Source: a virus. Taken from it: 64,000 nucleotides of DNA. The position numbers were made by a program, and so were the translations under genes. Numbering within the stretch: position 1 is the stretch's first letter; each line of letters opens with the position of its first letter. The notes below the pieces were generated by a model. The model was given only the letters and a program-made list of their open reading frames with translations. It made no database searches and had not been told where the DNA came from. The DNA is taken from the IMG/VR virus record IMGVR_UViG_3300010149_000010. One strand, written 5' to 3'. Below, piece by piece: positions 29,464 to 57,562 of this stretch.

Positions 29464-29464
29464 T

Positions 29465-29911: not shown

Positions 29912-30258
29912 TATTTCATCCCTCCTAAAACAACTCCAAAAGCTGCAACACAAACACCTACTTCAAATGCCGCTCCAATGGGTAGGGTAAACTTTTTTCT
30001 AGGGGTTTGATTTAAAAAAGGCACATTTGGTAACCAGTCAAAAGGTGGTGCGCTTTGCTCGTACAGTGGTCCTTGAATATTGTAAGTGTTCAAGTATAAA
30101 CTACCGCCAGGTCCAGGCTGAATATTTATCCCATCCCTGCCTACCTCCAAACATACTAGTTTGTTTCGATTAGCGAATATTGCTGCGCTTTCTAAAGAGA
30201 GGTGTAGCCCTGCAACACAGGCATCATTAAACTGGCTTTTAATAATCTTTGTGCTCAT
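29911..30258 (-). CDS. Hypothetical baseplate/spike-associated protein
   Basis: 115 aa, between the hub and gp25-like genes. Confidence 0.55.
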   Translation of the reverse strand: MSTKIIKSQFNDACVAGLHLSLESAAIFANRNKLVCLEVGRDGINIQPGPGGSLYLNTYNIQGPLYEQSAPPFDWLPNVPFLNQTPRKKFTLPIGAAFEVGVCVAAFGVVLGGMK

Positions 30259-36700: not shown

Positions 36701-39700
36701 TACAGCTTTTATTACAGCCTTTTGTTCTTCACTTAGTTTCTTTTTGCCTTTGGGTGGAAAGAATTTTATCTCATACTTATTACCTGCTTGGGATATTTCA
36801 AAGTTGTATCTTCTCACTTTCCTCTCAGGTATCACTGCTTGAAAAGTAATCGATGCAGGCGTTACTGTTTCTTGATAAAGACTCTTTATTGCATTAGTAT
36901 CTACTAGATTATTATCTGACAGGAAAGTAATAAAATCTTCAGGCTTTGTAGAGGTTAGCTTGTATGCTTCTATATCTGCACTCTCTCTTGTGTCCTCCTT
37001 TAAAGCGGTTTTATCTTCTTTAGCTAAATCCCCTTCCTCTATTTCTTCAGCTTCATCATTGTCTAAATCACTTGATTCTTCAACTGCATCATCATTTGTT
37101 GGTAAATCGCCACTATCGAATACTTCATATATTCTTGGGAGCAAATATTGCACATCGTATTTAGTTCCATGACTGTGACTGTGACTTACTATAGTATAAC
37201 TGCCATCAATTACTGTCGCTAAAGGTACATCTCTAGAGTTAAGATTAGGTTCATCAGTCAAATCGTTGCTAAACATTTTTGGGACACTAGGAATCCCTGG
37301 AACAATCCTATGAAGCTCATTAATAAAGTGGCATGCAGCTTCAATTAGCTTATCTGGGAACTTTAATATCTGCCTTGGCCCGTCTGGGCCTGGATTATCA
37401 ATTACCTCAAACCCATATCTTTTTGCATTAGACGTTACAGGAGACAAAGCAAAATCAAAACCTATTGAGTTTGCATTAAAATTCCCCGCATGATTTGCTT
37501 GGTAGGCTGCGTCTACCATTTGGCTAGCAATTATAGTTCCATCTTTTTTATAACTTATACCAAAGTGACTACTTGTCGTGGTACCGGCCCATGTTCTTTT
37601 TAGAAACTCTGCGTTATGTCCACCATGGTGCAACATAATAAACTTGATATCATCGAGATCCCTCGGAGCTCGGCCAATCTGACCATCTGCATGATCTGTC
37701 TGTATGTTTATCTTTTCGTTTTGAGTGAAGTTTTCAAACTCAAATAAACCTCTAGTGTCTATTTCATAGCCTTTACCATTTATTATGACGCCTTTTTGGT
37801 CTTGTTGCTTGTAATACTCTTTTAAAGCGTCGTCAAAGCCACTTTTTCTTATATAAGCTTTAATAATAGCTATGTCTTCGTTCCAAAACTTCTTTTGATC
37901 AATAAACCGATACGGATCTTCTTTACCTCCCCATCGTCTTCTACTATCTCTCACATTCCAAGAAGAACCAATTTTATTTGCATGGTTAACAACAAAGTTT
38001 ACGTCTAAATGTATAAAACTACCTGCAGTGTTGGGCATAAGGTTATCATTAAAAATAGCTGCAGTGGGACCGGCGTTAGCGCCGGTCCCACTAATCCTGC
38101 CGCTTTGTCCCCCAATAGCACTACCGTAAATACCTATTCCAAAAATCCTTCTTCTGTTTCTTTTACCTTTTCTTTTGCCTATGCTGTCGAAGAAGAATCT
38201 TCTTTCTTCCAAGAGTTCAATTATTGCAGCTGCTTCACAAACATTCATATTATTTATGTATATGTCTGCAGCCCCACCTGTGAAGTGATTAGAAGCTGTA
38301 TCTCTGCTTCGTCCATCTAACTGTCTATCTAATGTAGAAAACGCATTGATAGCAAAATTCTTAGGGTTTGTTCCACTTATAGCTCTATGCTTTAAATAAA
38401 TATTTAAAAACTTCTGTAACGGGTCTAGGTAATCCTTACAAAATTCAAAAGCATTCTTATCTATATCCCCTACGAGTATTTTTTCAAGTCCTTGATTTTT
38501 AATCTGCGTCCTTAAATGCTTTTTTGAATGTGCATAGAAAGACTTCGCACCGAAATATATAGTATTCCAGTAATGATTTACATATTTGGCCGTAGAGTAC
38601 GACCTGGCATTACTGCTAACTGCACTTCCTCCTTGAGGACCAATATTAATGCCGCTTTGCTGAATTACTGAAGCGTACCTGCTTAAATAATTCTCATCTA
38701 CTTCGGAGCTTTTTGCCGCCCTTACTTCCTCTTCATCATAACACTTACTTTCACTAAAGCGTAAATTCAATCCAACCGCTCCCGGTGAACCTTCAATAGT
38801 AAATGTATCTACAGAAGAAATTAAAAATCTGGGTTTTATATCTCTGATTACAGCTTCTTGCTTGTTGTTAAACTCGACGACTTTTTCATCATTGTCAGCA
38901 TATTTAAAAGATCCTACAAGTTTTGTTATTAATGACTCAACGACAATATTTGCAGCGTCAGGTATTTGAGGAAAATTCTTAGCCATGTAAGCGGTATGCG
39001 CTCTGACGTTTTCTAATTCTTTGATTTTCGGAGGAAGCCCGTCACCAATTCCAGTGTACCCGATAAAATTAAACTGATAGCTAGGTTCTATGCTACCTAG
39101 AAACTGATGCGTAGGGTATTCATAACCAAGTACAGGAATAGAGCTGATAATGTTTCTCAAGCTACAAGAAACGTTTGTTATATCTTGCTCAAACTTTGGA
39201 AAAGAATCGCTGTTTACTCCGAAAGTATCCTTACCTGTGATCGCTTTAACATCTTCTTCAAACAAGTTAGAGTCGAATGAAAGTATCAGTGCTTTTTGAA
39301 AAACATTCTCTAGGCCACTTCGATACTGGTACTGAGAAAACCCTTCTTCTTCAATTACTCTTTTAATGGAGTTAATGTAAGGTAGATCCTTTTCAGTTAA
39401 ATATGTTTCGTTATCATTGCCTAATGAAACTTTAGAAACAGACCTTTTAACGACTTTACTGCTTTTTACATATTTTTCTTCTAAAGCTTTCCCAGTTAGT
39501 GTTAAGCAAAGATCATTTATTAATTGTCCACTTGCATTTATTGTAAACTCATTGTTCGTGTCAAAGTATCCAACTATTGTTCCCGCAGGAAAAACCTTTC
39601 CTTCTTGAGCCTTAATCCAATAACGCAAGTTCTCTTGCTCTTGTACTCCGCTGTATACTATCTTTTCTTCTTTTACACCACTTCCATTTGTAATAATTAT

Positions 39701-41161
39701 TTCCCCATTATTACTGTATGTGATCTTACCAGCTCTGATAGTCATTACTGCAAAAGCTAAATTGCTTGAATTGTTTTCATCCCATTCCTGAGTATTTTGA
39801 ACTTTATAGCCAGCGTTTGAAGTGCCTGTTATAAAAACATTACTACCAGGAGAATAATACCCAAAAGCTTGTAAAGATCTTTGTATTGGTAAAGAATATT
39901 CTTGAGAAATCGGGTCTATAGCTAGCCTTAAGTCTCTATCTTGTGGCGCACTTAAAGTTAAACCAGAGGTTACTGGTTTTGCTTCATTAATTACAGCTTC
40001 TTTTTTAGCTTCGTAGTCTTTGAAAAGTTTAAAGATTTTCTGTTTATTTTTTTTTATAACTTCATTTTGACTTTTTTCATTCATCCCTTTCACAATGCCT
40101 TTACGCAGACTTTTTCTGTGCCTGAATAGGAAGTTCCCCCCTAAGTTTAAAGACTTGTATTCCTTTGTCACAATTCTCGTATTAAGTCCACTCAACAGTA
40201 TCGAATGCGTCAGGTCTTTTCTGAACTTTAAAAGTTTATCATTTTTAATTCCATTAACTTTTAATTCGTGAATCCCTACTACGCTTGGTCTTTTAATGTT
40301 GCCTTCATACGCAGTACCCTGAAATAAATTGTAAACCTCTTCGTCTACAAATACCTCGTTTGGAACAAACTCTTCAATATTTTCCGTCCCTTTAACTACG
40401 TTTATTCCAAAACTTTCGTTTAAATATTTCAATTGCAAGAAGTTCGAATACCGTTTGTAAGCATTCGATTTTCTTGGGTCCGTAACAACACTTCTGCTTC
40501 TCGAAATAGCTTGTCTTGATAAGCTAAGAGGATTGTTACCATTAGGAGGGCTTAAGTCTCTTATTGTATTATTGCTACGTTTTAAATTTTTGCTGTATTT
40601 TAAAAGCGGCTTTCTTTGATCGGGCGTGCCTTTATATGTTGGGAAAATGGAATGCACATATTCTTTCACGCTTCCCTTATCTTCGACTTTCACTGTGTAG
40701 TCTTTTCTAAAGGTCAAAGATCTTCCAAAAGGTTTGTAGTTGAAATACCTTAGATCTAATTCTACTAAAAAAGCACCTGGCGAGCTAGGGTGGTTTGCAA
40801 TGTTCAAACCAAACACAGTAAAATAGTTAATTTGTGTAGCTACTGCATGGGTGTCTGATATGCTTTGCTGTATGAAACTATTTTGAATAGACACAAAAGG
40901 GTTGTTTCTTACTTGAGAAATCAATCGGTGCAAAAGTAGCAATGAGTCTGGTGCAAAAGTAATGCTAACCTGCGCGTGATAGTTACCATTTCCTGAAGCT
41001 ATTTTTGTGGAAACTCTAGATCTTAAAGTTTTCCACGCATATTCCAACCCCTCTTTATGCACTGATATTGCTGTAGGTGGAATATGAAGCTCAATATCGT
41101 TAATTACAAAATTAGCTTCTTGAGAATTAAACAGATCAGGAATGTTATTCAATTCACGCAT
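30767..41161 (-). CDS. Giant baseplate hub / tail-associated lysin (peptidase M15-like + amidase_2 + gp27/VgrG-like hub)
   Basis: M15: ASNHFTGGAADI...FIHLD. Amidase: IMLHHG, SSHFGI, NHAGNFNANSIGFD, IVSH. Hub: TATIQLQN, LRPGVTVQLRAGY, YEGSLTILGDTKINPWD...VCSVTH. Confidence 0.8.
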   Translation of the reverse strand: MRELNNIPDLFNSQEANFVINDIELHIPPTAISVHKEGLEYAWKTLRSRVSTKIASGNGNYHAQVSITFAPDSLLLLHRLISQVRNNPFVSIQNSFIQQSISDTHAVATQINYFTVFGLNIANHPSSPGAFLVELDLRYFNYKPFGRSLTFRKDYTVKVEDKGSVKEYVHSIFPTYKGTPDQRKPLLKYSKNLKRSNNTIRDLSPPNGNNPLSLSRQAISRSRSVVTDPRKSNAYKRYSNFLQLKYLNESFGINVVKGTENIEEFVPNEVFVDEEVYNLFQGTAYEGNIKRPSVVGIHELKVNGIKNDKLLKFRKDLTHSILLSGLNTRIVTKEYKSLNLGGNFLFRHRKSLRKGIVKGMNEKSQNEVIKKNKQKIFKLFKDYEAKKEAVINEAKPVTSGLTLSAPQDRDLRLAIDPISQEYSLPIQRSLQAFGYYSPGSNVFITGTSNAGYKVQNTQEWDENNSSNLAFAVMTIRAGKITYSNNGEIIITNGSGVKEEKIVYSGVQEQENLRYWIKAQEGKVFPAGTIVGYFDTNNEFTINASGQLINDLCLTLTGKALEEKYVKSSKVVKRSVSKVSLGNDNETYLTEKDLPYINSIKRVIEEEGFSQYQYRSGLENVFQKALILSFDSNLFEEDVKAITGKDTFGVNSDSFPKFEQDITNVSCSLRNIISSIPVLGYEYPTHQFLGSIEPSYQFNFIGYTGIGDGLPPKIKELENVRAHTAYMAKNFPQIPDAANIVVESLITKLVGSFKYADNDEKVVEFNNKQEAVIRDIKPRFLISSVDTFTIEGSPGAVGLNLRFSESKCYDEEEVRAAKSSEVDENYLSRYASVIQQSGINIGPQGGSAVSSNARSYSTAKYVNHYWNTIYFGAKSFYAHSKKHLRTQIKNQGLEKILVGDIDKNAFEFCKDYLDPLQKFLNIYLKHRAISGTNPKNFAINAFSTLDRQLDGRSRDTASNHFTGGAADIYINNMNVCEAAAIIELLEERRFFFDSIGKRKGKRNRRRIFGIGIYGSAIGGQSGRISGTGANAGPTAAIFNDNLMPNTAGSFIHLDVNFVVNHANKIGSSWNVRDSRRRWGGKEDPYRFIDQKKFWNEDIAIIKAYIRKSGFDDALKEYYKQQDQKGVIINGKGYEIDTRGLFEFENFTQNEKINIQTDHADGQIGRAPRDLDDIKFIMLHHGGHNAEFLKRTWAGTTTSSHFGISYKKDGTIIASQMVDAAYQANHAGNFNANSIGFDFALSPVTSNAKRYGFEVIDNPGPDGPRQILKFPDKLIEAACHFINELHRIVPGIPSVPKMFSNDLTDEPNLNSRDVPLATVIDGSYTIVSHSHSHGTKYDVQYLLPRIYEVFDSGDLPTNDDAVEESSDLDNDEAEEIEEGDLAKEDKTALKEDTRESADIEAYKLTSTKPEDFITFLSDNNLVDTNAIKSLYQETVTPASITFQAVIPERKVRRYNFEISQAGNKYEIKFFPPKGKKKLSEEQKAVIKAVTRYYGKELKVNIQTSTEYGTKTVQSVVPGSLGMDRFSGVAKTQFASRVITDKSDLKSKSLFFNVGEVNAKSAQRDALTRAKLNNNKLLKSFTELASLMLTEPYLYTDSAKEFEDEMKFIQKELYNFPVLPAFYTSTERLFTGVTSLSTGAILSEANNISKSTKGVALTASAIGTGITLHRISQALFFAGTKINPAGWVISGVFLALEMYGVWDALGGNLDSQGKSQLERVTAGMASHGKFLKDKESFKLYIKYFEENKNFLIGEGVNISVKGGRKIGDFLTEIGRADTVRSGINNHVKPIFSELSIFEKFNKVASELDASSRALNLIRRSLKDSEGIYDKNGNINAKLANFALAEELTLKEMKNYLRFLFTFPAVNTTGPDEEDHHHILKIDKTNKTISYLKQSESDPYYWPNTRNPAQIKSDPEALKNENRFPYLVTYQIKNKNGLKEYFNTIKGKEALKNENRFKIAYLRKLLSAILEEHMSLNPKIVENSRDATLLKVLDGSTVFELLEENAYPDIDLPQDPNNLYSNSNLSPCFYYHDGNDILDTMVKSAKEKEFAAADKILNSSIQFQKGLRNGIFTGPESKLEGNESATKIVNELVDSTEVLRSISEFMITGESDEKKMAYGAPIKIGVFDNTEKVSEEAQINVTVSESMVSSSSNAVPAIIKTVTKTVAETNKAIDSRYNKELSRLSSAFGSSLGFKIKDDFLKEIKKSGDKELNRTLGEQIEQDYGKESIMGLSEDSSKNIYKLKTMKNAFPTFRLYLIEEDEIYTDRLTAFDDFFYYNSVISFNVHNSRELAASTATIQLQNISGVLDGTKKRALRDVDLDPNVKEENFKKEGNFIDSIVLRPGVTVQLRAGYESNTNELDVLISGKIADINYAQNNSICNITVQSFGVELTALRKGNGNKNKNSAHAFYSTHQLLGSMMLSDELKHFGRSKVGAVFQFGEYKDFSLDLDIYKKESSFNFSLSRNFFDWVSDNTFGIGIGVGLLTFGMPLLKMGAKTTFVTKITSWYAGAGKGAAFARGVGRYVNAVFVKPISFINPFGISQRAKDLIIKRAQNLSNLVARSSTKNPLAAQLAGYAPVINTFDDALEYLIRANRYNLAPGTFGPLGMEALKLNSIGGLNSLVVNTGGRFAALRSNVIAHGYLNGSVVTLFQKIAQILTAGKYQAGNKLGEEFLKQVIVKQRGFGALGMSGLGPSLMSKTWLGSKIGVDILARGYSSITLPLAVGFTGGLVTSVMLAGADVIIDSAKFMYYSMLGSFSEDKNKLKKKKLLSPQDDNIFSPHPKQYMINVPSTTYSYWDSLASAGSEWVEAMSKESKKLINNSTWGMINITNDSKLKDLKLSPFSLVDKRLDVAQYENTFIVNGQTIWDILHECTLRHPGYIYGVRPYGNSLEYRVFFGVPSQRYWSKKISNNQIRKLNAIYVALKEANGGALSMKNIGELFPRELALSNDTDSSNGDKLKKFFTEKAYDYFIKKTKDRFVPFRQFHLVSSKRNLVSNNVIVSSHNMINAVSVNFINNRKDLDGSQEGLSPNDWSPHLSKFGDQIETLRFRANRNISMNNLKEKTVSSRNIIGPSNAVRYGLGELLHGTRKMYEGSLTILGDTKINPWDVVVLHDDITNMYGPVEVCSVTHMLSFETGFITDVEVNALVTANEELSHPMIMQNLVYETRARVFDEYNSFNAMGNSMEEKTKAVREIVEDEVENLIDETIAKEGGFLRYQAGAGIAINPNDITEEKKQEIVNKISDYVIKNYQNSSNANFLNDLVPEGATIPKELTDVINTAGGLSASISGAFFGGELLRRRLASSNGLKILGNGPLKMGLFFASSLFLAQSGDAINAAFSSSYSSGDLGKNMFRQHILSRMDAGNIIQLYPLVKDGVPLVTGGFEEVDETEKWNNMLGYIYNNATSTIKGYVKRQQEMKAYGKRVMQSYDKNELSSLKSAITVNLSKIASSVVGLEKSLSMLGYMYMDED
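35303..35429. repeat. Perfect 28-nt direct repeat (35303-35330 and 35402-35429), in frame (EALKNENRF twice)
   Basis: aaatctattctcattctttaaagcttct occurs twice with a 99-nt period. Confidence 0.95.
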
Positions 41162-41164
41162 ATT

Positions 41165-44100
41165 TTAATCTCTCATCATTTTATTAATATAGGCATTACC
41201 TATCGGCCTTCTATTGTCGTTGACAGTCAGTGACGCCTGCCCTCCAGCCGATACAAAGTGCTTGCCCATAGTTTGAGCTGCAGAAAGGCTTGGAGCCTCT
41301 CCGTACATCTTAATTGAACGATTCAATGATACAGTACTCACTCCGCTATTGATAGGTCTTTCATAAAAATTATCAATCCCATTTATCTTACCTGGGCTTA
41401 CGTTTCCGTGCTCTCTACTAAAACTTTGTTGCAAAGCTCTATTGCTTAAACCTTGCCCCGCTTTTAAAGCTTCTTTAGAGATAGAATCGGAAAATTTACC
41501 TCCAGGTTCAAGCGAGCTGCTTGGCGAATTTGCTCCCACAGCATACGAAGCCAAAAGCGAACCTGCAATTACTCCAGCCAAACCCTTGCTCCTGCTAACG
41601 GTTTCGCTAAAAGCACTTCTAGCAGAATCTACTTTAGAAAAAATCGATTCTATTTCATCAAGCTCGCCAGTAATCACTCCACCTTCCATTGAAAAACCCT
41701 TGTTCATTAGTTGGAACAATTGCTGGCTGTTAAACCTAGAAGAACCTTCTAATTTTCTTCCAAGTGCCTTGTTAGATGTAAAATCGTTAAATCCATATTT
41801 TTTTACATTTCTAGCCATAACATCAAAAGAGTCAAATATTTCTTGGACATTTAAATTTACGTCTCCTAGAGCTTCTCTAAACTTTTTCGTTGCATTACCT
41901 TCTCCTAAGTTATGGAACTCAATTGACTTTGCATCTATTTTTAAGTTGCCTTCAGCATTTTCCAACAAAGTTCCTTTGAATATCTTGTCCTGGAAAAAGC
42001 TTTTTAGAGCATCGCCCTTACCCGTATTAAAAGATGTTTTTAAAGCACTTAGGTATTCCCTAGAAATGTTAGCAGCAATCGGAAGCTTCTTGCCTTTAAT
42101 TCCTAAAACTTCTTGAGCCACTGATATTAAAGCTGCTCCACTTTGAATTTTTTTAAATTGAGCTGCAAAATCTCCACTAGTATCATCTGCAGCAGACTGT
42201 GCAAGTCCCAGCATTCCTGCTTTAACTTGCACATCTAGACCACCAATTCCCTTTACTATTTGTTCTTTCTGGTACTCGTCTACAATGGACTGAGCAACTG
42301 TCATTTGTGAGGCTCCCATGCGCTTCCCTAGCTTCTCTACACCTTCCCCAAGCAGGCTCATGTTAGTTAGAAACTCTGCACCATAAGTGTACATTTTTTT
42401 TGCGTCGATCCCTTGGTTTTTCATTTTATTTTTTAAAGTCTTGTCTACATCAAAAAATACCTGATAAGGATCCGCGTCAAAGTCTCCAATGCCAAACCTT
42501 GCAAAATCCATGCGCCCAGAAAAGGCAGTCCTTTTACCTGTATTTACATCTTCTATTTGCATGCTCATGTCTATTTGAGGAAACCTTACAGTCCCTCCTC
42601 CATGCTCGCCTTTCTCTAAGTGCTTGTTAAGCATATCTTTATATATACCACCATAAGCACTAACTTGCTCTTCGTTTAGTTTTCCGCTTTCTTTCAACAA
42701 TCTTAGTTCAGCCAAATCGGCACCTGTTTTAACTTCTCTTCCCAAAACATCGTCTAGGATTTTTAAAGGCCTGCTTATACCAGGCGCTCTTGGCTGAGTT
42801 TTGTTTCCTTGAAAATCTGTATCTAAACCGCTTACTTCAGGAGCGTTGTTCATTATTTTTTCATCTATATCTTTTATAGTTATATCACCTTCATTTTCTA
42901 TTGATTCTTTTTGAGCATTTTCTATTAATTGTTTTTGAGCTTTGATTTCGTCTTCTTCTTGATTTAATCTTTCTATTTCTTCGAAAAGCGCTTTTCTGCG
43001 TTTTTGTTTACCCCTAAAAGGGTTTTTTTCCATTTCGTTAAGATCGCGCGTTGCTCTTTGTGAAATTTCTCTTTGTGAATAGAAATTTGACGCTCTATCT
43101 TTCACCTCTGACATTTTTACTTCTTCTCCTCTAGCTTCTCTTCTGATTACATCGTAGGCGTCTATCTTTGTAGCTTGAGGCGCAAGAGTGTAATTGCTGT
43201 TTTCATTAAGGACTTTTCTTACCCTTCCTCTGTTTCGAGAACTTATCCTCTCTAAGAACGGTTCGAGACTTTCTTCTGTAACCATGCCTTTTTTTCGTGC
43301 CGCTATAATTTCTTCAGAAACTGCTGGCCCCACTCCTTTTAGCTGCATCAATTCCTCTTTTGTTGCTAAGTTTAAATTCACAACACTCGCTCCACCACTT
43401 CTTACTTCTTTTATCCTCTGCGATATTTGCTCCCTATTCATATTGATTTTGCTCCGACCCTTGTTGTCAGGTTGAGCTAGTTCTTCTAAAGGGTTCAATT
43501 TACTCCCCGTTTGATTTCCATACTCATCAAGTAAGGGTACGTTTTTTCCAGAAAACTTTCTTGCTAAAAACTCGTTTTCAAAGCCTTCCAAGCTTCTCAA
43601 GTGAGTTTTATTGTCAGCATTAAAACCAAAAAAAGGTCCCATTTCGTTTATGAATCCAATAGCCTCTTTTTTATTTTCGAAATGCCTAAAAGAAGATGTC
43701 AACCTACCTTCATCTACACTCCTTCCATATGCTCCAACGTCTTCTATAGTTTCTGTGAACTCTCTTTCTAAACTACGTCTTATGTTTCCTTCAGAGACAT
43801 CACCGCCTCCAAGAACAGCCCTTCCGTAAACGTCTTTATTTTTATCAGCAGCGGTAATTTGTTCGTTAATTTTATGTATTTTATTATCAATAATTTTTGC
43901 TTCTTCATTAAGACCTTTAAGTTCCTCTGCCTTTTTGCTATATTCTGTAGTTTTTGTTGAACCAGCTTTATTAAACTTCTTAATTTGTTCAATTATCGGC
44001 TCGGCCTTTTTTTTTATTTTTGAAAACTGATCTTGCAAAAGAGCTACTTTACTATGACGTTTAGCTTGTGCTGCACCTACGTCTTCAGCAAGAAGGTTCA

Positions 44101-47100
44101 AATTACTTTCTTGAGGTAGGTTTCCTGAAAATACACCATGCCGCCTCTCTATAAACCCTCCAGGTTCTTCTAAAATCTTTGAAGCATCTCGCCTTTTGTT
44201 TAAAAGGGACTCCCTTTCAGCAACAAACTTTTCGTAACCTTCTTCACCTTTTATACTGGCTCTTTCTTGTTTGATTTCTTGCCTTTTGGCATAAACTTCT
44301 TGCCCCCTAGTATAAACAGCATCTCTTTCATCAAGTTTTTCTAAACCAGTAACCCCTTTTAATATTTCCGAAACTTTATCTTGGTTTAATGATTTTCTAA
44401 TCTTTTTAAGATGCTCTACATAATCCGGTGTAAACTCTTCTCCTTTTTCTACATTTCTTAAAAACTGTAGTGGTTTTAGCTCTTTTTCAAAATCGTATTG
44501 ATAAATACCCATGCTTGCAAAAATGTGTGAAAAACCTATGAGAGGATTTCTTTGTATCGTTCCAGAAATTCCTTCTTTTTTGCTTCGATGCATGCCAGTA
44601 AAAAAGGCTTCCAAAGTCTCTTCCATTATTTTGTTTGTTTCTTTTTTGGTAGAGACTTTACCTTGAGAAGCTAAATGTTTATTTATTGCTGATTCGTAGG
44701 TACCCATTCCATCTAGGAAAGCCTGTTGATCCATAAATGCAACATAGCCCATTTCTTTGTTTACCACTTCAGACAAAGAGTCTACAATTTGCTTTTGAAC
44801 ATTCAGATCATCGCTAAAGATTGTAGCTCCAACGCCTTTTTTTCCTAAAGTGAACCCACCTCCCATATAAGAGCCTGATCCTAAGATTTTACCACTTAGT
44901 GTACTCCTGATCGCTGTACCCGTTATTTTGCTTAATCTTTTTCTAACTTCAGTAAAGCCTGAAATTGATTTTTCGATTTCATCTTCATCAGTTCCAGCAT
45001 CCTTCAACGAAGATAAAGATGATAGCAAGTCTGTAATATTTCTTCCGTATTCAGCTTCTACTTTTATGACTTCATCACTCGACCTGATCTCATGGCCTAA
45101 AAACCCTTGAAAGGTATCTTCTCCTGGGAGAAATATTTCTTTTTTGCCTCCAGTAAATTCGTACAGCCTATCCAGCCCCTCTTTAGAGAGGCCCATTTTT
45201 TCTAAATCAAGTATGTTCCCTCCTTTCCTGGCAGACAGTTTTTCAACGACTTCTTTCTCTTTGCCTTGCCCAAGGTCTAAAAGTTCAGTTACCTCTTCTT
45301 CGGTTAGTTTACCAACATCGCTTAAACCTGATATCTGCTCTTTTATATTTGTTGCATCAAGCTTTCCAAGAGATTCTTGTGTCAGCTTCATTCCCATCAA
45401 GCCTCCAGCGCGACTTTCGAATCCTTCCATTCTGGTTATCATTGAAGAAACGTATCCCGTCGCTTCTTTTGAATCCATCCCCCAAAAGGATCTTAAAGAA
45501 GAATAAAGATAGTTCGCAAACCTTGGTTCAGCCTTAGCTACGCTTCTGCCCAGGTCTGTATGTGGAGTACCAACAGTTCCAAACGCAGCACCGATTACCA
45601 CACCTCTTTTTGCTGTCTCTTCGATTTTACTTAAATAGGGATCAACATCAACTACACCCGCGTCTTTTAAACCCGCAGCTATTTTTCTTTCAAAATATTC
45701 TAAGTTTAAACCAAACTTTTTATTGCTTGCTTGGTTTCTAGCATAAGACATTACCATTCCAAAATGATCAGCACTTATTCCTTCATCACCAGCCCTTTTT
45801 GCAATTGTTTGAAAGAACTTCCCTAAAGTTGAAGCGCTTTTTTGCTTTGCAGACACTTGGTCTACATTTGTTAGCGTGCTTTTAAAATCACCCAATTGGT
45901 TGTCATTTATTTCGGTAAGCAATTCATCTGCATTGTCTAAAGACCCCATACTAGTATTTAATGCTTTGTCCATTGCTGCTTCATCCAACCCGAGCATCTT
46001 CATACCTCCGTGTATCTGCGTACGCAGATACCCAGCAGACTTTCCCAATTGAGCTGTTGTGGTAAGCAAGGTGTTCTCTATCCTTCCCCCAAAACCGTCT
46101 TTATTGAAAAACACCTCTCCAATGTCACGAACACCCAACTCTTCCAGTTTCTTCAACATAGAAGATTCATTAATTGTAAGCGTTGTGTCTTTGGCTAAAG
46201 AAGAGAATAGTTTGCTATAATCAACGTCTTGCAACACTTGGCCTTTAAGATGGTAGCGGTCCCTTCCTGTTTCCATGCTTTTTTCAGAAAGCCCAAGCGT
46301 AAATCTTTTCATACCTTTGTGACGTTTGATGTGCACAATTCTGTCGTCTTGTTTTCCTAAAACAGCACGCCCTTCAGAATCTCCAAATTGTTTGAAAAAA
46401 TCATCAATATCGTAATCGTCACCATCAACGAGTGAACCTATAGTTAAAAACTTTCTGTTATTGTCTTTTGAAGCATTTAAAACTTCCGTCAATAACTTGC
46501 TCTGGTTAATACCTTCTTTGTTTATGGTTTTTGTATAACCTTTTTTAACCTGAATGGTGCCCCCCATATAACTCATCCCTTCACCAAGGCCTAATTGAGC
46601 AGCAGGGTTTTTTATTTTTTTTGCTCCGTGTTGTGCTTCTTCAAGTTTTTCAAAAATCATAATAGCGCCAAAGTTTACGCCTCTGATATTTTTAGATACT
46701 TCCTTATCACTGGTGATTCCAATCAATTCATTGCTTGCCCCAGATATTTTAATGTCTCCCTTTTTTCCAAAAGTAGCGTCTCTTTCAACACCTGCAAACC
46801 CTGCTGCTAATTCGGGTCTTCCGTAAACTTGACCAGCACGCGCTGTTTGAGGCACTAAACTGCGGTCCAGTCGCCCATACCTTTTCATCGCATTGAAGGC
46901 CGTTTTTGTTTTTGTTCCAGAATCATTCTCCAGTCGCTCAATATGACCTACTATCATTTCTCTTTTTAAATCAAATGGATCCTTAAATCTAGAAGTCAAA
47001 GTTTGCGAACCTGAAGTACCTCCATAAATTTCTGACTCATATTGAAGTATTTTTTTCGTTACTTGCTCCCTGTCTTTTTGTGCAAATTTTTCCAGTCCAG

Positions 47101-48352
47101 CAATTCTATGTATTGATGATTGAAAAGCTCGAGAATCTATAAGTGTAGACATCAAGTCTTTGTCGATTAAATTTATTTCTTTTCCACCATTAATTGTTCT
47201 GCTTGAATTCAATCCTTCAATCATTGTTCTTGGGGTCTCTATTGACATCGACCTAATATAGTCATTGTACTCATTTATATTTGTCACGCTAAAATTTTGA
47301 AAAGACTGTTTGTTTTCTTTTATCAATCCAAATAAATGATCTTCTAAGCTCATTGTAGCGTCTTTTAGCGCAGCTGCTGCCCCAGTCCCCTTTGGGGTTG
47401 CTAACTGATTCAAATCTAAACTAGGGAAAATTTTTGCAGCGTCTATTACACCCCCACTAGTAGTGTACCGTGTAGACATATTCTCCGTCCCTCTTATTAT
47501 TGTCATTCCAGATCTTGGGTCTTTAGCCAGGTCTAAAGCTACGTTTTGAAACCTCCCACTGCTATGCTCTACTCTCGCATAAGTAGACTTACCTTCACCT
47601 GGTCCATACTCTTCTAAAGATACTAATTGTATATTCTTTCCTGAAGCCATGGATTTAAGTTCCCCATATTTCTTCGTCGCTTTTCTACTCAGATCACTTG
47701 TCGATGCTGACTTCCACTCTACAGTGGAGGTTCCTTCTGTTGTGAAATCTTTGAAGGTGGTATTGAATTGGCCTTTTGTTTTCATCATTGAAGAGTGTCT
47801 TTTTTTGAATTCTTGCAACTTTGGACCGCTAGTACTTACACTACTTTTATAAAAATCAATAGCAGTCCGCATATCAACCTGTTCGATGTTTCCTGTTTCA
47901 ACACCTTGGTACAGTTTTTCTAACGATGCTTTTAGTGATCCCGAATCATCAATCATGCTTTCGCTAGCAGTATCAAAAAGTGCTGACAAAAAAGCCCTTG
48001 CTTCATTTGCGGAAGATGTTTCATTAAACATTCTTTCTAGGTTCTCACTACTTAAAATCTCCTCTTTAAAAGTTTTAAGTGCTACTTTCCTGCTTTCGTT
48101 TACAACACTCTTTAACCTTTCAGCATCTTTTCTAATTATGCTTCCTGCCCGACCTAACTCATTTTGCGAAGCAGAAGAGTTCTTTAAAGCCCCTAAGCTC
48201 TTCTTTACACCTGATGTTAAATTTACATTCTCGTTTAACAGGTAGGCTGTCCCAGCCACAGCAGCGGCTCCTATTACTGTGCGTCCAGTGTTTTTTATAT
48301 TCGACACTTCTTTATCTTTTTGCTGCTCATTTAATAGATTTATTAAAGACAT
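41165..48352 (-). CDS. Giant virion protein; candidate single-chain two-barrel (DPBB) RNA polymerase with HhH insertion
   Basis: LGEG (E591), K714-x6-K721, QRNP (R1268), ComEA-like HhH (~aa 1657-1690), GDFDAD (aa 1956-1961); hydrophobic segments near both termini. Confidence 0.55.
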   Translation of the reverse strand: MSLINLLNEQQKDKEVSNIKNTGRTVIGAAAVAGTAYLLNENVNLTSGVKKSLGALKNSSASQNELGRAGSIIRKDAERLKSVVNESRKVALKTFKEEILSSENLERMFNETSSANEARAFLSALFDTASESMIDDSGSLKASLEKLYQGVETGNIEQVDMRTAIDFYKSSVSTSGPKLQEFKKRHSSMMKTKGQFNTTFKDFTTEGTSTVEWKSASTSDLSRKATKKYGELKSMASGKNIQLVSLEEYGPGEGKSTYARVEHSSGRFQNVALDLAKDPRSGMTIIRGTENMSTRYTTSGGVIDAAKIFPSLDLNQLATPKGTGAAAALKDATMSLEDHLFGLIKENKQSFQNFSVTNINEYNDYIRSMSIETPRTMIEGLNSSRTINGGKEINLIDKDLMSTLIDSRAFQSSIHRIAGLEKFAQKDREQVTKKILQYESEIYGGTSGSQTLTSRFKDPFDLKREMIVGHIERLENDSGTKTKTAFNAMKRYGRLDRSLVPQTARAGQVYGRPELAAGFAGVERDATFGKKGDIKISGASNELIGITSDKEVSKNIRGVNFGAIMIFEKLEEAQHGAKKIKNPAAQLGLGEGMSYMGGTIQVKKGYTKTINKEGINQSKLLTEVLNASKDNNRKFLTIGSLVDGDDYDIDDFFKQFGDSEGRAVLGKQDDRIVHIKRHKGMKRFTLGLSEKSMETGRDRYHLKGQVLQDVDYSKLFSSLAKDTTLTINESSMLKKLEELGVRDIGEVFFNKDGFGGRIENTLLTTTAQLGKSAGYLRTQIHGGMKMLGLDEAAMDKALNTSMGSLDNADELLTEINDNQLGDFKSTLTNVDQVSAKQKSASTLGKFFQTIAKRAGDEGISADHFGMVMSYARNQASNKKFGLNLEYFERKIAAGLKDAGVVDVDPYLSKIEETAKRGVVIGAAFGTVGTPHTDLGRSVAKAEPRFANYLYSSLRSFWGMDSKEATGYVSSMITRMEGFESRAGGLMGMKLTQESLGKLDATNIKEQISGLSDVGKLTEEEVTELLDLGQGKEKEVVEKLSARKGGNILDLEKMGLSKEGLDRLYEFTGGKKEIFLPGEDTFQGFLGHEIRSSDEVIKVEAEYGRNITDLLSSLSSLKDAGTDEDEIEKSISGFTEVRKRLSKITGTAIRSTLSGKILGSGSYMGGGFTLGKKGVGATIFSDDLNVQKQIVDSLSEVVNKEMGYVAFMDQQAFLDGMGTYESAINKHLASQGKVSTKKETNKIMEETLEAFFTGMHRSKKEGISGTIQRNPLIGFSHIFASMGIYQYDFEKELKPLQFLRNVEKGEEFTPDYVEHLKKIRKSLNQDKVSEILKGVTGLEKLDERDAVYTRGQEVYAKRQEIKQERASIKGEEGYEKFVAERESLLNKRRDASKILEEPGGFIERRHGVFSGNLPQESNLNLLAEDVGAAQAKRHSKVALLQDQFSKIKKKAEPIIEQIKKFNKAGSTKTTEYSKKAEELKGLNEEAKIIDNKIHKINEQITAADKNKDVYGRAVLGGGDVSEGNIRRSLEREFTETIEDVGAYGRSVDEGRLTSSFRHFENKKEAIGFINEMGPFFGFNADNKTHLRSLEGFENEFLARKFSGKNVPLLDEYGNQTGSKLNPLEELAQPDNKGRSKINMNREQISQRIKEVRSGGASVVNLNLATKEELMQLKGVGPAVSEEIIAARKKGMVTEESLEPFLERISSRNRGRVRKVLNENSNYTLAPQATKIDAYDVIRREARGEEVKMSEVKDRASNFYSQREISQRATRDLNEMEKNPFRGKQKRRKALFEEIERLNQEEDEIKAQKQLIENAQKESIENEGDITIKDIDEKIMNNAPEVSGLDTDFQGNKTQPRAPGISRPLKILDDVLGREVKTGADLAELRLLKESGKLNEEQVSAYGGIYKDMLNKHLEKGEHGGGTVRFPQIDMSMQIEDVNTGKRTAFSGRMDFARFGIGDFDADPYQVFFDVDKTLKNKMKNQGIDAKKMYTYGAEFLTNMSLLGEGVEKLGKRMGASQMTVAQSIVDEYQKEQIVKGIGGLDVQVKAGMLGLAQSAADDTSGDFAAQFKKIQSGAALISVAQEVLGIKGKKLPIAANISREYLSALKTSFNTGKGDALKSFFQDKIFKGTLLENAEGNLKIDAKSIEFHNLGEGNATKKFREALGDVNLNVQEIFDSFDVMARNVKKYGFNDFTSNKALGRKLEGSSRFNSQQLFQLMNKGFSMEGGVITGELDEIESIFSKVDSARSAFSETVSRSKGLAGVIAGSLLASYAVGANSPSSSLEPGGKFSDSISKEALKAGQGLSNRALQQSFSREHGNVSPGKINGIDNFYERPINSGVSTVSLNRSIKMYGEAPSLSAAQTMGKHFVSAGGQASLTVNDNRRPIGNAYINKMMRD

Positions 48353-48353
48353 T

Positions 48354-51300
48354 TTAACCTCTTATCGCTAAACTTAACATTGACAGGATCTCAGTGCTCC
48401 TATCGTCGTTGTAATGTATTTCCGCTCTACTATTTTCATAAGGAGCGTGAGAAGTGTTTATTAAGGATTTACTAAAATCTATTCCCGTAGAATTCTTCAT
48501 TCCTCTTATAAGCCTGTTTCTTGCAGAGCTTCTTGATGGGCCTGGGCTCTCGTACATGAACATGTCAGAACCTTCCAAGTATGGCCTTCTCGAGGCTCTT
48601 CTAACTTGGCTATTCCAGACGTCATAATCGTGTGTCTCTTGACTGCTATTGTCTATGTATTTTACTTTAACATCTTCGATATCGACATCTTTGTGCCATC
48701 CGATCCAATCAGGCCCAGGTAGAGGTTTATTTATAAAGTACTTTTCAACCTCTTGCAATTGCTGACTCATATAGCCAGGATCTATGTTTGCTTTAGCACC
48801 TGCACCCATTAATGTCAATTTTTCACCGCTATCAACTCTGCCCCATACAGCTTTATAAAGATGCACTTGGTCTTCAGGTACAAGCTCTAGTATTTTTTCT
48901 CGATCAGCTTCTCTTGCATTTGCAAAAGCGTCAAAAAATCTTTTTTCTGCATTCGGAAGGGATAAGTACATGCTTAAAGCATCTCCATTAGGATTCACTC
49001 CCGTCCTAGTTTGAGCTGCCATCTTCATGTATCTTTGACGGTCCTTGCCATTCTCTGCACCTTGTGCAAGCTGCATAAACTTTAAAAATTGTAATTTATC
49101 AAAATGGCTGTCTAATTCTTCTCTTTTAGTTACATGTAATGGTTTTCCGCCCCACCCCATTAGGTTAGCTGCACTATACAAAGCTGGTCTGAACCAGTCC
49201 CTTACGTGCTTGTCCCAAAAAGCGTTTGTCGTACCGTAAACTCTTTCCTGCTCGTAAGCTTCTATTGCGGACCTTGTTTTACCCAAAAGTTTTTGCGTTG
49301 GTCTAAACCCGCCTGGAATTAAATATTCCGCAGGCGCACTCACTTTTCTAATTATGCTTTCTGCACCTTGATATAAACTTTTGGTGATATCTGATACTAC
49401 AGGAATTTTAATAGCATTTTTCGCATACTCAAAGTCCCTAGTAGGTGCGAGCTTTTTTCTATGTGCTTCAGAAGCGTTTTCTAAAATTCTATTTTCTAAA
49501 TCAGTTGTAAGCCCAGCGACTCTTCTTTCCATTAGTTGATTTCTTAACCGAATAGTCTCTCTCGATTTAGGCGACAAATCAGAGAGTATCTTGTACTTAT
49601 GTATGTCCGGATAGTCTTCTGGATCTAGACCTTCTACCTCTGGGTTTAAAGCTTCATAAGCTTTTCCAGGCATTCTAGAAAACCCATTTGGAATCGATCT
49701 GTATGGGTCTCCCCTCCTGTATCTTGCAGGCATCCATGAAGGCATTGTGTTGGCAATTGGGTTGTACTTTTCAATTGTAGATCTTGGTCGAGGAAGAATT
49801 CTTCTTATTGGCTCTGAAGTAAAACCTAGCCCACCCAAATCCATATCCCAATAATCTAGCACTCCAGAATCCATGTCTGAAGAAGAGGCCATTTGAAAAT
49901 CTCTTGTACCTATTGTTTCCCTACCGGTTACCAGTTTTTGCAAATAGTTTTTTGTATAACCAGTAAGACCCTCTATTTCTCTGAACTGATACTGCACTTC
50001 TCCTAAAAGCGAAGACGTAGAGTAGGGGCTTTTTGGAACTCCTGGCCCCATTTGGCCTAAAGCTTTACTAGATCCAAACTCTTGCAAGTAGGTGTGCTCG
50101 ACTTGCCCTTTGTCGTTGATTTGCATCAACTCTTCTTCATGCATTAGCCTTGGGGGTTTTATTAACCGACCAATTGTATTTGAAAGTATGCTCCCAATAA
50201 CGGGCACATCTTCAAAAGCAGAGCCACTTATTGGGTAAGGCCTATCATAGTAATTTTTCTCTTCCAAATGGTAAGTAAAATTCTTCAACATAAAACGGCT
50301 TAAAGGAGAGTATTCTTCTGTTTCATCTCCCCAAACAGCTTTCTCTTTTGCTTGCGTCATTAAAGATACATAAGCATGCGGCCTAAAATAACTAGTTTCA
50401 TTCCCTCCCAAAGGCGTCCCGCCACCTTCCCACCATCTTCCTTTTTTAATTTCTACAAGCTTTTTACCAGAATAAATTTCTTTTAGTTCATCTGGGTTTT
50501 CCATTGTACCAAAAAGGCTTCCCGTTAAAAGCTGATGTGTTGCTGCAACCCCTAAAAATAAAGCTCCAAATCTTCTTAAAATAGGTGAAGCATTTAAACT
50601 TTTAGCAAACTCATCGTAAGTCTTAGTTACTTCTTCACCGTTAACCATTCTTGTTACGTCCCCTTTCATCGGGGCGCCCAAGAATGAATGAAATATTTCT
50701 GCTCCAAGTATCTCAGTACGCCTTAGCGTGTTGTCTAAAATGCTTCCGGATTTATATTTACTGTTTATTATTTCAATTCTATCTAATAAAGATCTATTTA
50801 AATCATTGGATTTGTAATTATTATCATAAACGTCTGATCTAATTTTTGCATTTATATTATATTCAAAATCTAAGATTTCTTTCTCTCTTTTCGACACATC
50901 TGTAATGTTTCCGACAATTTGAAATAGATCTTTATTTTTATTAAAAAAAGTACCTAACTTTTTTATTTCTGAATTCTCTAAATCTCCTGCCCCTTTATTT
51001 TTAATTATTTCGTCAATACGCCTCGTATACTCTTTTATTTCCGGCGAGCCCGCATGTAGATTTGAAATCTCCTCACCAAGAGGGTTGTATTTCATAAAAT
51101 TTTCGCTGTAATTGCCACTTCCAGATTTTATTGGTACTAATGCATCATATAACGCTGATGCTTTTACTTGCTTACTTGTTAGAGGTATATCTACTTTTCC
51201 AGTTTTGGCGGAAGCAACTAAACCCACCCTGTCTTTTATAAAATCTGGCACAACTTTTTTTGCAATCTTATCTATTGCACTCAAATTATTGTCTGCGCTC

Positions 51301-54877: not shown

Positions 54878-54880
54878 AAT

Positions 54881-57487: not shown

Positions 57488-57490
57488 AAT

Positions 57491-57545: not shown

Positions 57546-57562
57546 CTACAATTAAGTTTAAC

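What the first reader, a model, noticed from the sequence alone, without database searches (positions are those of the whole stretch)
41165..48352. Candidate virion RNA polymerase with a non-canonical DFDAD active site, encoded at the tape-measure position of a contractile tail
Seen: the 2395-aa ORF has GDFDAD at aa 1956-1961 (nt 42470-42487), QRNPLIG at R1268 (nt 44543-44551), SKLFSSLAK (K714/K721, nt 46190-46213) and LGEGMSY (E591). Known: two-barrel polymerases (beta/beta', YonO, cellular RdRPs, the crAss-like phi14:2 virion RNAP with DFDID) show a DG-type motif and two Lys in barrel B, then R-x-P and DxDxD in barrel A, in this same order when on a single chain. Inference: this is a highly divergent single-subunit RNAP. 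Its position between the tape-measure-like and hub genes, and hydrophobic segments at both ends (TVIGAAAVAGTAYLL; GLAGVIAGSLLASYAVGA), suggest it is packaged in or ejected through the tail. That would be a tail-delivered transcription machine. The Lys spacing (7 vs 8 in beta) and the long R-P-to-Asp distance are deviations.
Basis: partly seen in the sequence, partly recalled or inferred. Interest (0 to 1): 0.92.

Follow-up and report, generated by a model that had tools for sequence, protein, structure and literature searches.

The report
Hidden RNA polymerase among phage tail genes
A 2395-residue gene sitting among the contractile-tail genes of an uncultured ~159-kb marine phage encodes a very divergent single-chain version of the cellular RNA polymerase core, probably carried in the virus particle to start viral transcription, a strategy proven so far only in a few unrelated phages.

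Summary
It belongs to a metagenome-only family: 99 clusters at 50% identity, none in GenBank phage records. Across 48-56 members (mean column identity 15-27%) very few columns are invariant. They include K714, R1268/P1270 and D1957/D1959/D1961.

An AlphaFold2 model of a short member (P0011, 34-44% identical; pLDDT 87, pTM 0.86) matches only two-barrel RNA polymerases at the top of an all-PDB structural search. Best matches are QDE-1 (Z 10.1), RDR2 (9.7), P74-26 gp62 (9.5), beta/Rpb2 chains (up to 10.9) and P23-45 gp96 (7.2). The beta-like half comes first, the beta'-like half second.

The long R-x-P-to-Asp distance is a roughly 520-aa clade-specific insert with a ComEA-like helix-hairpin-helix, inside the catalytic barrel.

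The gene trio (giant protein, polymerase, giant lytic TMP-like protein) is conserved next to sheath and baseplate genes.

A tail-delivered two-barrel polymerase is already known from Thermus phage P23-45, so this is a new variant, not a new kind. Virion packaging and activity remain inferred. This scan has noted the same family in other genomes.

The parts
41165..48352 (-). Whole ORF (P0001, 2395 aa): single-chain two-barrel RNA polymerase-like protein
   Evidence: family and fold evidence
46916..48352 (-). N-terminal region, aa 1-479, with a weakly hydrophobic Ala/Gly-rich segment at aa 25-39. Conserved only in nearer relatives. Function unknown.
45545..46906 (-). Beta/Rpb2-like module, aa ~483-936 (model residues 4-427)
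   Evidence: Aligns to Rpb2 750-1104 and to bacterial, plastid and viral beta subunits with Z 9.7-10.9 and about 255 aligned residues. Mapped onto P0001.
46175..46369 (-). Beta-strand core of barrel B, aa 662-726, containing K714 (invariant) and K721 (at least 90% conserved) on a beta-hairpin
44498..44881 (-). First half of barrel A, aa 1158-1285, containing the invariant R1268-N-P1270 (nt 44543-44551)
   Evidence: The designed DPBB 7dww_A aligns 85 of its 86 residues to model 648-919. Invariance; mapping.
42887..44449 (-). Clade-specific insert inside barrel A, aa ~1302-1822. Poorly conserved and Lys/Glu-rich. It falls in the low-confidence loop 797-806 of the model.
43286..43387 (-). ComEA-like helix-hairpin-helix, aa 1656-1689, a likely DNA-binding element within the insert
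   Evidence: Pfam HHH_3 E 6.1e-07, 29.9 bits against a cutoff of 27. Weak PDB ComEA matches.
42452..42592 (-). Second half of barrel A, aa 1921-1967, with R-F-P 1923-1925 and the catalytic-type triad D1957-F-D1959-A-D1961 (nt 42470-42484)
42023..42400 (-). [quoted passage not shown] Contains invariant E2030 and K2088.
   Evidence: Model helices 935-1062. Rpb1/beta' chains align to model 490-1170 with Z 6.9-8.1.
41165..41584 (-). C-terminal module: hydrophobic helix aa 2257-2274, then a tail conserved to the last residue even in distant members
48354..52751 (-). Upstream giant gene (1465 aa), no recognisable family. Its stop lies 1 nt before the P0001 start. A counterpart of 1269-2181 aa sits in the same place in relatives.
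30767..41161 (-). Downstream giant gene (3464 aa). Has Amidase_2 (aa 1171-1283), an endolysin-like PHROG (aa 2963-3145) and two transmembrane-like segments (aa 2471-2491 and 2713-2738). Tape-measure/lytic ejection-protein-like.
   Evidence: Counterparts of 3177-4315 aa with peptidase domains occur in relatives.
58460..61384 (-). Tail sheath candidate (974 aa)
   Evidence: phrog_16991 tail sheath, E 8.6e-09
28219..29953 (-). Baseplate wedge genes: gp25-like (162 aa) and gp6/J-like (417 aa)
   Evidence: phrog_120 E 9e-06; phrog_6 E 1.1e-27

Best explanation
P0001 is a highly divergent single-subunit member of the two-barrel (beta/beta'-type) RNA polymerase superfamily. A beta-like module (aa ~480-930) supplies conserved lysines (K714, K721). 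A beta'-like module supplies the Mg-binding triad D1957/D1959/D1961. That module is split by a roughly 520-aa insert carrying a DNA-binding helix-hairpin-helix.

The gene is made with the tail proteins, in one tightly coupled late operon between the tube-side genes and the baseplate. I infer that the protein is built into the virion and enters the cell with the DNA, most likely together with the two neighbouring giant proteins. The C-terminal hydrophobic helix and the conserved tail may serve incorporation or membrane passage. Inside the cell it would transcribe the first phage genes from the incoming DNA independently of the host polymerase, as shown for P23-45 gp96, crAss-like gp66 and N4 vRNAP.

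Shown here: the fold, the order of the modules, the conservation of catalytic-type residues and the conserved gene neighbourhood. Inferred: catalytic activity, a DNA template, packaging and the early-transcription role.
For: Family: 99 representative clusters match the C-terminal block, and in full-length members the block always lies at the C-terminus of a 1650-3265-aa protein. The N-block is homologous too.

Conservation: GD[FYWM]D[GA]D is kept in nearly all members. The invariant columns across 48 sequences include K714, R1268, P1270, D1957, D1959 and D1961. In 56 C-block sequences only G1920, the three Asp, E2030 and K2088 are invariant.

Structure: the AF2 model of P0011:474-1643 with a 48-sequence alignment has pLDDT 87.3 and pTM 0.86. 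In VIA-align against 48,161 PDB representatives, ranks 1-17 are all two-barrel RNAPs. These are plastid beta (Z 10.7), QDE-1 (Z 10.1, 340 aligned, spanning both halves), RDR2 (9.7), P74-26 gp62 (9.5), Rpb1/beta' chains on model 490-1170 (Z 6.9-8.1) and P23-45 gp96 (Z 7.2, 333 aligned). A designed DPBB aligns 85 of 86 residues to model 648-919. A second look at Foldseek's list gives 220 chains with Z >= 8; the 50 listed are Rpb2/beta chains and QDE-1. The Foldseek rows with probability 0.6-0.87 are RNAP second-largest or beta-type subunits.

DNA binding: the HHH_3 match lies above the Pfam cutoff.

Context: the sheath candidate lies upstream and gp25-like and gp6-like baseplate genes downstream. 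The stop and start codons are 1 and 3 nt apart, with AAGAGG before the start. The trio giant/polymerase/giant-lytic is conserved around four other members, including distant ones.

Precedent: P23-45 gp96 is a tape-measure-fused, experimentally active virion two-barrel RNAP (PMC10770324).
Against: No activity or virion proteomics exists; the whole family is metagenomic.

The model is of a 34-44% identical homologue, not of P0001 itself. The fold of P0001's own C-block with 8 sequences was poor (pLDDT 42.8).

Z-scores of 7-11 are in the 'middling' range by the tool's own note. The case rests on the unanimity of the hits and on each half matching the right subunit type.

I had no residue-level superposition, so the equivalence of K714/K721 to the beta lysines is not shown, nor which R-x-P matches the beta' one.

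No sequence or profile similarity to gp96 or gp64 was found, nor to any PDB chain.

The best structural neighbours spanning both halves are RNA-dependent enzymes (QDE-1, RDR2), so template specificity is open.
Confidence: 0.62

Rival explanations
1. It is an active two-barrel RNA polymerase but is not packaged. It is made late and works inside the infected cell, for example on late genes, and its place among the tail genes is incidental.
For: No proteomic data exist. The weak relative in Microcystis phage Ma-LMM01 (ORF80) lies about 10 kb from the sheath gene, on the other strand.
Against: The position between tube-side and baseplate genes is conserved, with tight coupling, in all five contexts examined, including distant members. 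The protein has a hydrophobic helix and a conserved C-terminal tail. Giant phage two-barrel polymerases encoded among virion genes have so far proved to be virion proteins (PMC10770324; bioRxiv 10.1101/2020.03.07.982082).
Confidence: 0.15
2. It is a structural tape-measure or ejection protein whose polymerase-like core is an inactive relic or serves another role, such as DNA binding or DNA pulling without RNA synthesis.
For: It sits in the tape-measure slot. The length of the insert varies greatly (about 50-1400 aa), as expected of a ruler-like element. It has hydrophobic segments.
Against: The three Asp, R-x-P and the Lys are among the very few invariant positions in a family with 15-27% mean column identity. 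That is the signature of selection on catalysis. The downstream 3464-aa protein has the more typical tape-measure features.
Confidence: 0.1
3. It is a two-barrel polymerase with a different chemistry: an RNA-dependent RNA polymerase, a primase-like enzyme or a DNA polymerase (PolD-like), rather than a DNA-dependent transcriptase.
For: The best matches spanning both barrels are QDE-1 and RDR2, ahead of gp96. QDE-1 has both DNA- and RNA-templated activities (abstract of PMC9508822).
Against: It is a dsDNA phage with its own DnaE-type replicase and a primase-helicase. It carries a dsDNA-binding-type HhH. The characterised phage members of this clade (gp66, gp96, gp64) are DNA-dependent (PMC10770324).
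Confidence: 0.08

Closest known systems
Thermus phage P23-45 gp96 (also P74-26, G20c, TSP4): tape-measure-fused virion two-barrel RNAP (Chaban et al. 2024, PMC10770324; PDB 8H2M/8H2N)
   Same: A single-chain two-barrel RNAP core with a DFD(G/A)D triad, encoded at the tape-measure locus of a tailed phage. The structures match (Z 7.2, 333 aligned residues, rmsd 4.6 A). A lytic, membrane-segment-bearing giant protein is associated with it. A second candidate polymerase gene lies in the early region (P0107, unverified).
   Different: P0001 is a separate ORF, not fused to the tape measure. The tail is contractile, not a siphovirus tail. The host setting is marine and mesophilic. No sequence or profile similarity was found. 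The catalytic barrel carries a large HhH-containing insert. The polymerase part lies in the middle and C-terminal part of the protein, not at the N-terminus. Structurally it is no closer to gp96 than to QDE-1 or gp62.
P74-26 gp62 / P23-45 gp64 non-virion RNAP (PDB 8F5M)
   Same: Structural match across both barrels (Z 9.5, 311 aligned residues).
   Different: gp62/gp64 are about 600-aa early-gene products that are absent from virions. No profile similarity was found.
Neurospora QDE-1 and plant RDR2 (eukaryotic RNAi two-barrel RNA polymerases; PDB 7Y7P, 2J7N, 7W84)
   Same: These are the best matches spanning both barrels (Z 10.1 and 9.7, 340-366 aligned residues). They share the single-chain B-then-A order.
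   Different: They are eukaryotic RNA-silencing enzymes. There is no sequence similarity and no phage or virion context.
crAss-like phage phi14:2 gp66 virion RNAP (PDB 6VR4; DFDID)
   Same: A giant virion-gene-encoded single-chain two-barrel RNAP next to other giant genes whose products are also in the virion.
   Different: It belongs to a podovirus. It did not appear among the 50 entries listed by the PDB-wide search, which is inconclusive. No sequence similarity was found.
Cellular RNAP beta/Rpb2 and beta'/Rpb1 subunits
   Same: The N-half aligns to the Rpb2 750-1104 / beta catalytic region (Z up to 10.9). The C-half aligns to Rpb1/beta' (Z 6.9-8.1). It has the DxDxD triad and a conserved Lys pair.
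   Different: It is one chain. It has no recognisable Pfam RNAP domains. The Lys spacing is 7 rather than 8. The barrel is interrupted by an insert.

Membership tests
Two-barrel (beta/beta'-type) RNA polymerase superfamily | Two double-psi beta-barrel modules forming one core; on a single chain the beta-like one comes first | tested here: met
   Model pLDDT 87.3. Model residues 4-427 align to beta/Rpb2 and 490-1170 to beta'/Rpb1. QDE-1, RDR2 and gp62 span both halves. A designed DPBB aligns 85 of 86 residues to model 648-919. Tested on homologue P0011 (34-44% identical) and mapped to P0001.
Two-barrel (beta/beta'-type) RNA polymerase superfamily | DxDxD metal-binding triad in barrel A | tested here: met
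   D1957/D1959/D1961 are invariant in 56 sequences. They lie in the loop before the last barrel strand of the model.
Two-barrel (beta/beta'-type) RNA polymerase superfamily | Two conserved basic residues in barrel B | tested here: met
   K714 is invariant and K721 at least 90% conserved. Both lie on a beta-hairpin of the beta-like module. The spacing is 7, not 8.
Two-barrel (beta/beta'-type) RNA polymerase superfamily | Residue-level superposition of K714/K721 and R-x-P on the catalytic residues of solved RNAPs | not testable with these tools
   The fold searches return ranges only, with no coordinates or residue alignments.
Two-barrel (beta/beta'-type) RNA polymerase superfamily | Bridge-helix/trigger-loop-like helices after barrel A | tested here: inconclusive
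   Long helices 935-1062 follow the barrel, and Rpb1/beta' alignments extend to model 1137-1170. The individual elements were not assigned.
Two-barrel (beta/beta'-type) RNA polymerase superfamily | Template-dependent RNA synthesis | not testable with these tools
   Needs biochemistry.
P23-45 gp96-type tape-measure-fused virion RNAP | Polymerase and tape measure on one polypeptide | tested here: not met
   P0001 ends with TAA. The next giant ORF starts 3 nt later, in frame. In relatives the spacer is 2 or 4 nt, so read-through fusion is not conserved.
P23-45 gp96-type tape-measure-fused virion RNAP | Specific sequence relationship to gp96 | tested here: not met
   hhalign of the 48-sequence profile against gp96 327-1124 gives probability 0.3. 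The structural Z of 7.2 is lower than to QDE-1, RDR2 or gp62.
Virion (injected) RNA polymerases in general | Presence in the particle and delivery into the host | not testable with these tools
   Only gene position and operon structure argue for it.
crAss-like gp66 family | Sequence or structural relationship to phi14:2 gp66 | tested here: inconclusive
   Not among the listed matches. By the tool's own note, absence from a list is not exclusion.

The most novel reading that the evidence does not exclude
The polymerase travels in or through a contractile tail together with the two neighbouring giant proteins, as a three-part ejection complex, and transcribes the genome as it enters. Transcription would then help pull the DNA in. 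The variable 50-1400-aa insert in the catalytic barrel would act as a spacer or ruler element, or as a DNA-handling arm. With the second early-region candidate polymerase (P0107), this lineage of abundant marine phages would run a fully host-independent two-polymerase programme.
Probability: 0.25. Interest if true: 0.8.

Novelty: new variant of a known kind. Interest (0 to 1): 0.62.

Why it matters
Virion-borne two-barrel RNA polymerases are documented in only a few phage groups: crAss-like phages, PhiKZ-like jumbo phages and Thermus phage P23-45.

This family would extend the tail-locus version to contractile-tailed phages of about 130-160 kb. These phages are widespread in ocean metagenomes, including Tara samples, and have no cultured or annotated representative.

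It would assign a function to a giant 'hypothetical protein' family and explain how such phages could start infection without the host polymerase.

It adds another very divergent branch for reconstructing RNA polymerase evolution.

It also shows a catalytic barrel that tolerates inserts of up to about 1400 residues. Short members such as P0011 offer a tractable enzyme for biochemistry.

Tried and rejected
- **Direct sequence searches found no RNAP.** Pfam and PHROGs on P0001 gave only HhH. phmmer and profile hmmsearch against PDB sequences gave only ComEA HhH or noise.
- **No hit in cultured or annotated phages.** tblastn of P0001, P0036 and P0097 against 50,697 GenBank phage records found nothing.
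- **The first fold failed.** P0001's own C-block with 8 close sequences gave pLDDT 42.8, which was unusable.
- **Foldseek alone was weak.** Against PDB it gave no hit at E <= 0.001. Only VIA-align made the match clear.
- **Profile comparisons were empty.** hhalign of the family profile against P23-45 gp96 and gp64, and against the P0107 family, gave no signal. The P0107 profile against gp64 gave none either.
- **Rejected: DYDID 646-650 as the catalytic site.** It is not conserved.
- **Rejected: read-through fusion with the downstream giant ORF.** It is in frame here only.
- **Rejected: short family hits (480-610 aa) as naturally split subunits.** The two I checked lie on ~2-kb contigs, with the gene call starting within about 250 nt of the contig end, so they are more likely fragments.
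- **No shared domain among the three giant neighbours**. The 1465-aa and 3464-aa neighbours have no PDB sequence relatives.
- **Cultured-phage records.** The N-block profile found nothing in the Acinetobacter phage ME3 or Ma-LMM01 records.
- **Not run.** I did not use sequencing-run or read mapping, or complex prediction; neither would discriminate between the hypotheses.
Full report
**1. Observation**

The window holds a 2395-codon ORF at 41165-48352 on the minus strand. All quoted motifs are at the stated residues and nucleotides:
- GDFDAD at aa 1956-1961
- QRNPLIG at aa 1267-1273
- SKLFSSLAK at aa 713-721
- LGEGMSY at aa 589-595
- two Ala/Gly-rich hydrophobic stretches, at aa 25-39 and aa 2257-2274

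The C-terminal stretch is the most hydrophobic 17-mer of the protein. A DxDxD by itself is not remarkable. About 0.4 are expected in a protein of this size and Asp content, and a second one (DYDID, aa 646-650) is present.

**2. Genome and neighbourhood**

The window is part of an IMG/VR virus record of 136,780 bp. The same gene lies on a 158,900-bp JGI marine contig, so about 22 kb are missing from the held record.

P0001 sits in a long co-directional block. In order of transcription the block reads:
- a sheath candidate (974 aa, phrog_16991, E 8.6e-09)
- four paralogous genes
- genes of 303 and 236 aa
- a 1465-aa gene
- P0001
- a 3464-aa gene
- genes of 170 and 115 aa
- a gp25-like baseplate gene
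- a gp6/J-like baseplate gene (phrog_6, E 1.1e-27)

The 3464-aa protein carries an Amidase_2 domain, an endolysin-type PHROG match and two transmembrane-like segments. It is the most tape-measure-like of the three giants.

The genes are tightly coupled. The upstream stop is 1 nt from the P0001 start, with AAGAGG just ahead of it. The P0001 stop TAA is followed by AAT and then the ATG of the next gene.

Elsewhere the phage encodes a split DnaE-type polymerase with an intein, and a primase-helicase. No Pfam-recognisable RNA polymerase turned up among the proteins I scanned.

**3. The family**

A word-based search found seven full-length homologues, 50-71% identical, all metagenomic and partly from Tara. 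They share a conserved N-block (aa ~1-1300) and C-block (aa ~1900-2395), with a poorly conserved middle.

A profile of the C-block, searched against 1.84 billion cluster representatives, found 99 proteins. In full-length proteins the block is always at the C-terminus of a 1650-3265-aa protein. The N-block (aa 480-1320) is homologous across the same proteins.

The middle segment is a variable insert. It is about 50 aa in P0011, about 570 aa in P0001 and up to about 1400 aa in P0040 and P0042.

The motif GD[FYWM]D[GA]D is kept in almost every member. In a 48-sequence alignment of the core (mean column identity 15%) only 13 columns are invariant. They include K714, R1268, P1270, D1957, D1959 and D1961, and K721 is at least 90% conserved. 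In 56 C-block sequences the invariant set is G1920, the three Asp, E2030 and K2088.

**4. Structure**

Folding P0001's own C-block with eight close sequences failed (pLDDT 42.8).

I then folded the core of the insert-poor homologue P0011 (aa 474-1643), which is 34-44% identical to P0001 in both blocks. I used the 48-sequence alignment. The model has pLDDT 87.3 and pTM 0.86.

Foldseek against the PDB gave no hit at E <= 0.001. Its rows with probability 0.6-0.87 were RNA polymerase second-largest or beta-type subunits.

VIA-align against 48,161 PDB representatives put only two-barrel RNA polymerases in ranks 1-17:

| Match | Z | Aligned residues | Model range |
|---|---|---|---|
| Plastid beta | 10.7 | 203 | 2-421 |
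| QDE-1 | 10.1 | 340 | 10-1148 |
| RDR2 | 9.7 | 366 | 16-1164 |
| P74-26 gp62 | 9.5 | 311 | 4-1162 |
| Beta-type subunits (Pol I, vaccinia, PhiKZ, AR9, Xanthomonas, ASFV, Pol III) | 8.1-9.2 | 252-268 | N-half |
| Rpb1/A190/beta' chains | 6.9-8.1 | 270-362 | 490-1170 |
| P23-45 gp96 | 7.2 | 333 | 7-1086 |
| Designed minimal DPBB (7dww_A) | 6.2 | 85 of 86 | 648-919 |

Re-aligning Foldseek's own candidate list gave 220 chains with Z >= 8. The 50 entries listed are Rpb2/beta chains (yeast Rpb2 750-1104 against model 4-427) and QDE-1.

The individual Z-scores are middling by the tool's own caveat. What carries the argument is that the hits are unanimous, that each half matches the correct subunit type, and that the order of the halves is right.

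**5. Anatomy mapped on P0001**

- The beta-like module spans aa ~483-936. Its strand core is aa 662-726, with K714 and K721 on a hairpin.
- Barrel A is assembled from aa 1158-1285 and aa 1921-1967. The first part contains R1268-N-P1270. The second contains R1923-F-P1925, then DFDAD 32 residues later.
- The P0001-clade insert (aa ~1302-1822) falls in the one low-confidence loop of that region of the model (residues 797-806). It contains a ComEA-type helix-hairpin-helix (HHH_3, E 6.1e-07, above the Pfam cutoff).
- The protein ends with a hydrophobic helix and a tail that is conserved to the last residue even in distant members.

The long R-P-to-Asp distance is an insertion. DFDAD is just the Ala variant of a DFDGD that dominates in the rest of the family.

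**6. Conserved synteny**

Around P0083, P0011, P0069 and P0040 the same trio recurs. These members are down to about 21-25% identical to P0001. The trio is a 1269-2181-aa gene, then the polymerase-like gene, then a 3177-4315-aa gene that often carries a peptidase domain. In P0040's contig a 404-aa gene lies between the polymerase-like gene and the third giant. Where the contig is long enough, a large gene and several genes of about 140-560 aa precede the trio. The module is a stable part of the tail gene cluster of phages with contigs of about 130-160 kb.

**7. Comparison with what is known**

Chaban et al. [quoted passage not shown] It transcribes pre-early genes, including the gene for a second, non-virion RNAP, gp64.

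That is the closest functional analogue, but this family is not a member of the gp96 family:
- There is no profile similarity to gp96 or gp64.
- The structural score to gp96 is lower than to QDE-1, RDR2 or gp62.
- The polymerase is a separate gene.
- The in-frame arrangement with the next ORF is not conserved in relatives.
- The tail is contractile.

I found no paper describing this family and no homologue in GenBank phage records.

BFVD returned uncharacterised proteins of uncultured phages, with weaker matches to Acinetobacter phage ME3 and Microcystis phages MaMV-DC and Ma-LMM01. The C-block profile hits Ma-LMM01 ORF80 (3562 aa, 'hypothetical') at an LGDFDGD site with a genome-wise E of 3e-4. 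The N-block profile does not hit it.

Earlier notes of this scan describe the same family in other genomes. One is the 3221-aa protein, which matches my P0040 by length and description. I did not rely on those notes.

**8. Mechanism and uncertainty**

Fold, module order, conservation of catalytic-type residues, the DNA-binding motif and synteny are shown. Activity, DNA-dependence, packaging and the early-transcription role are inferred from these and from precedent.

A second giant gene lies in the early region that the held record lacks (P0107, L012:12906-19430, 2174 aa). Across homologues down to 29% identity it keeps an invariant R-T-P and an invariant CGDNDGD, and it has the same type of HhH. 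I could not verify it as a polymerase: the fold jobs were exhausted and the profile comparisons were empty.

Three intergenic regions just upstream of it and of neighbouring small genes share a terminator-like hairpin, a T-run, AATTTAC and TTYAATGG followed by a second hairpin. These are candidates for phage-specific promoters.

I put 0.62 on the full statement (virion-delivered DNA-dependent RNAP). I put roughly 0.85 on the narrower claim that this is a two-barrel RNAP homologue with an intact active site.

**9. Verdict**

This is a new, sequence-unrelated variant of a known strategy, virion- or tail-locus-encoded two-barrel RNAP. It occurs in an uncultured and apparently widespread marine lineage of contractile-tailed phages.

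Noticed in passing
L012:12906-19430 (+) (JGI contig Ga0098048_1000011; region absent from the held 136.8-kb record): A second giant early-region gene (P0107, 2174 aa). Across homologues down to 29% identity it has invariant 'GRTPNQGHE' and 'CGDNDGDRNMIS'. It also has a ComEA-type HhH that is 48% identical over 27 aa to the one in P0001. It is a candidate non-virion RNAP, but no sequence or profile link to any RNAP or to P0001's family was found.
   Followed up: partly
L012:10472-10640, 11926-12082, 12718-12910: Three intergenic regions share an ordered element: a GC hairpin plus T-run (terminator-like), then AATTTAC, then TTYAATGG running into a second short hairpin. They lie upstream of early genes, including P0107, and are possible phage-specific promoters. 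The full element was not seen in the 136.8-kb record; one partial look-alike lies near G000 122974.
   Followed up: partly
L019:19701-30389 (-) = Microcystis phage Ma-LMM01 ORF80 (BAF36171.1): This 3562-aa hypothetical protein of a cultured contractile-tailed cyanophage gives a weak C-block profile match (E 3e-4 per genome) centred on 'SNLGDFDGDTFSAIFF'. BFVD also lists proteins of LMM01, MaMV-DC and Acinetobacter phage ME3 as structural neighbours. The Ma-LMM01 transcriptome paper I read (PMC5780444) does not mention a phage RNAP.
   Followed up: partly
window 54413-58435 (-): Four consecutive paralogous genes (290, 562, 305 and 154 aa) directly after the sheath gene all hit phrog_9206, which is labelled 'major head protein'. 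Their position suggests tube or tail proteins, so the PHROG label may be wrong.
   Followed up: no
window 41159-41167 (-): The P0001 stop and the next giant ORF read TAA-AAT-ATG in the same frame. Read-through would give a 5,860-aa polymerase-plus-lytic-giant fusion reminiscent of gp96. Relatives have 2- or 4-nt spacers, so this is probably coincidental.
   Followed up: yes
L003:12996-14603 (-), L003:18624-19979 (-), L003:3515-4759 (-): The DnaE-type DNA polymerase III alpha is split over several genes (PHP plus NTPase; NTPase plus finger with an intein fragment; HHH_6 plus OB).
   Followed up: no
L003:8740-12153 (-): A 1137-aa protein with ten collagen triple-helix repeat stretches (Pfam Collagen, E 3.6e-74), next to a 1194-aa protein with no family match.
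   Followed up: no
L012:3923-8008 (-): A 1361-aa protein with a staphylococcal-nuclease domain (E 1.5e-21), two genes from the large terminase.
   Followed up: no
context of P0083 (ENA ERZ24794672, no DNA held): In a distant relative the first giant gene of the trio (2181 aa) carries an intein with a LAGLIDADG-type insert.
   Followed up: no
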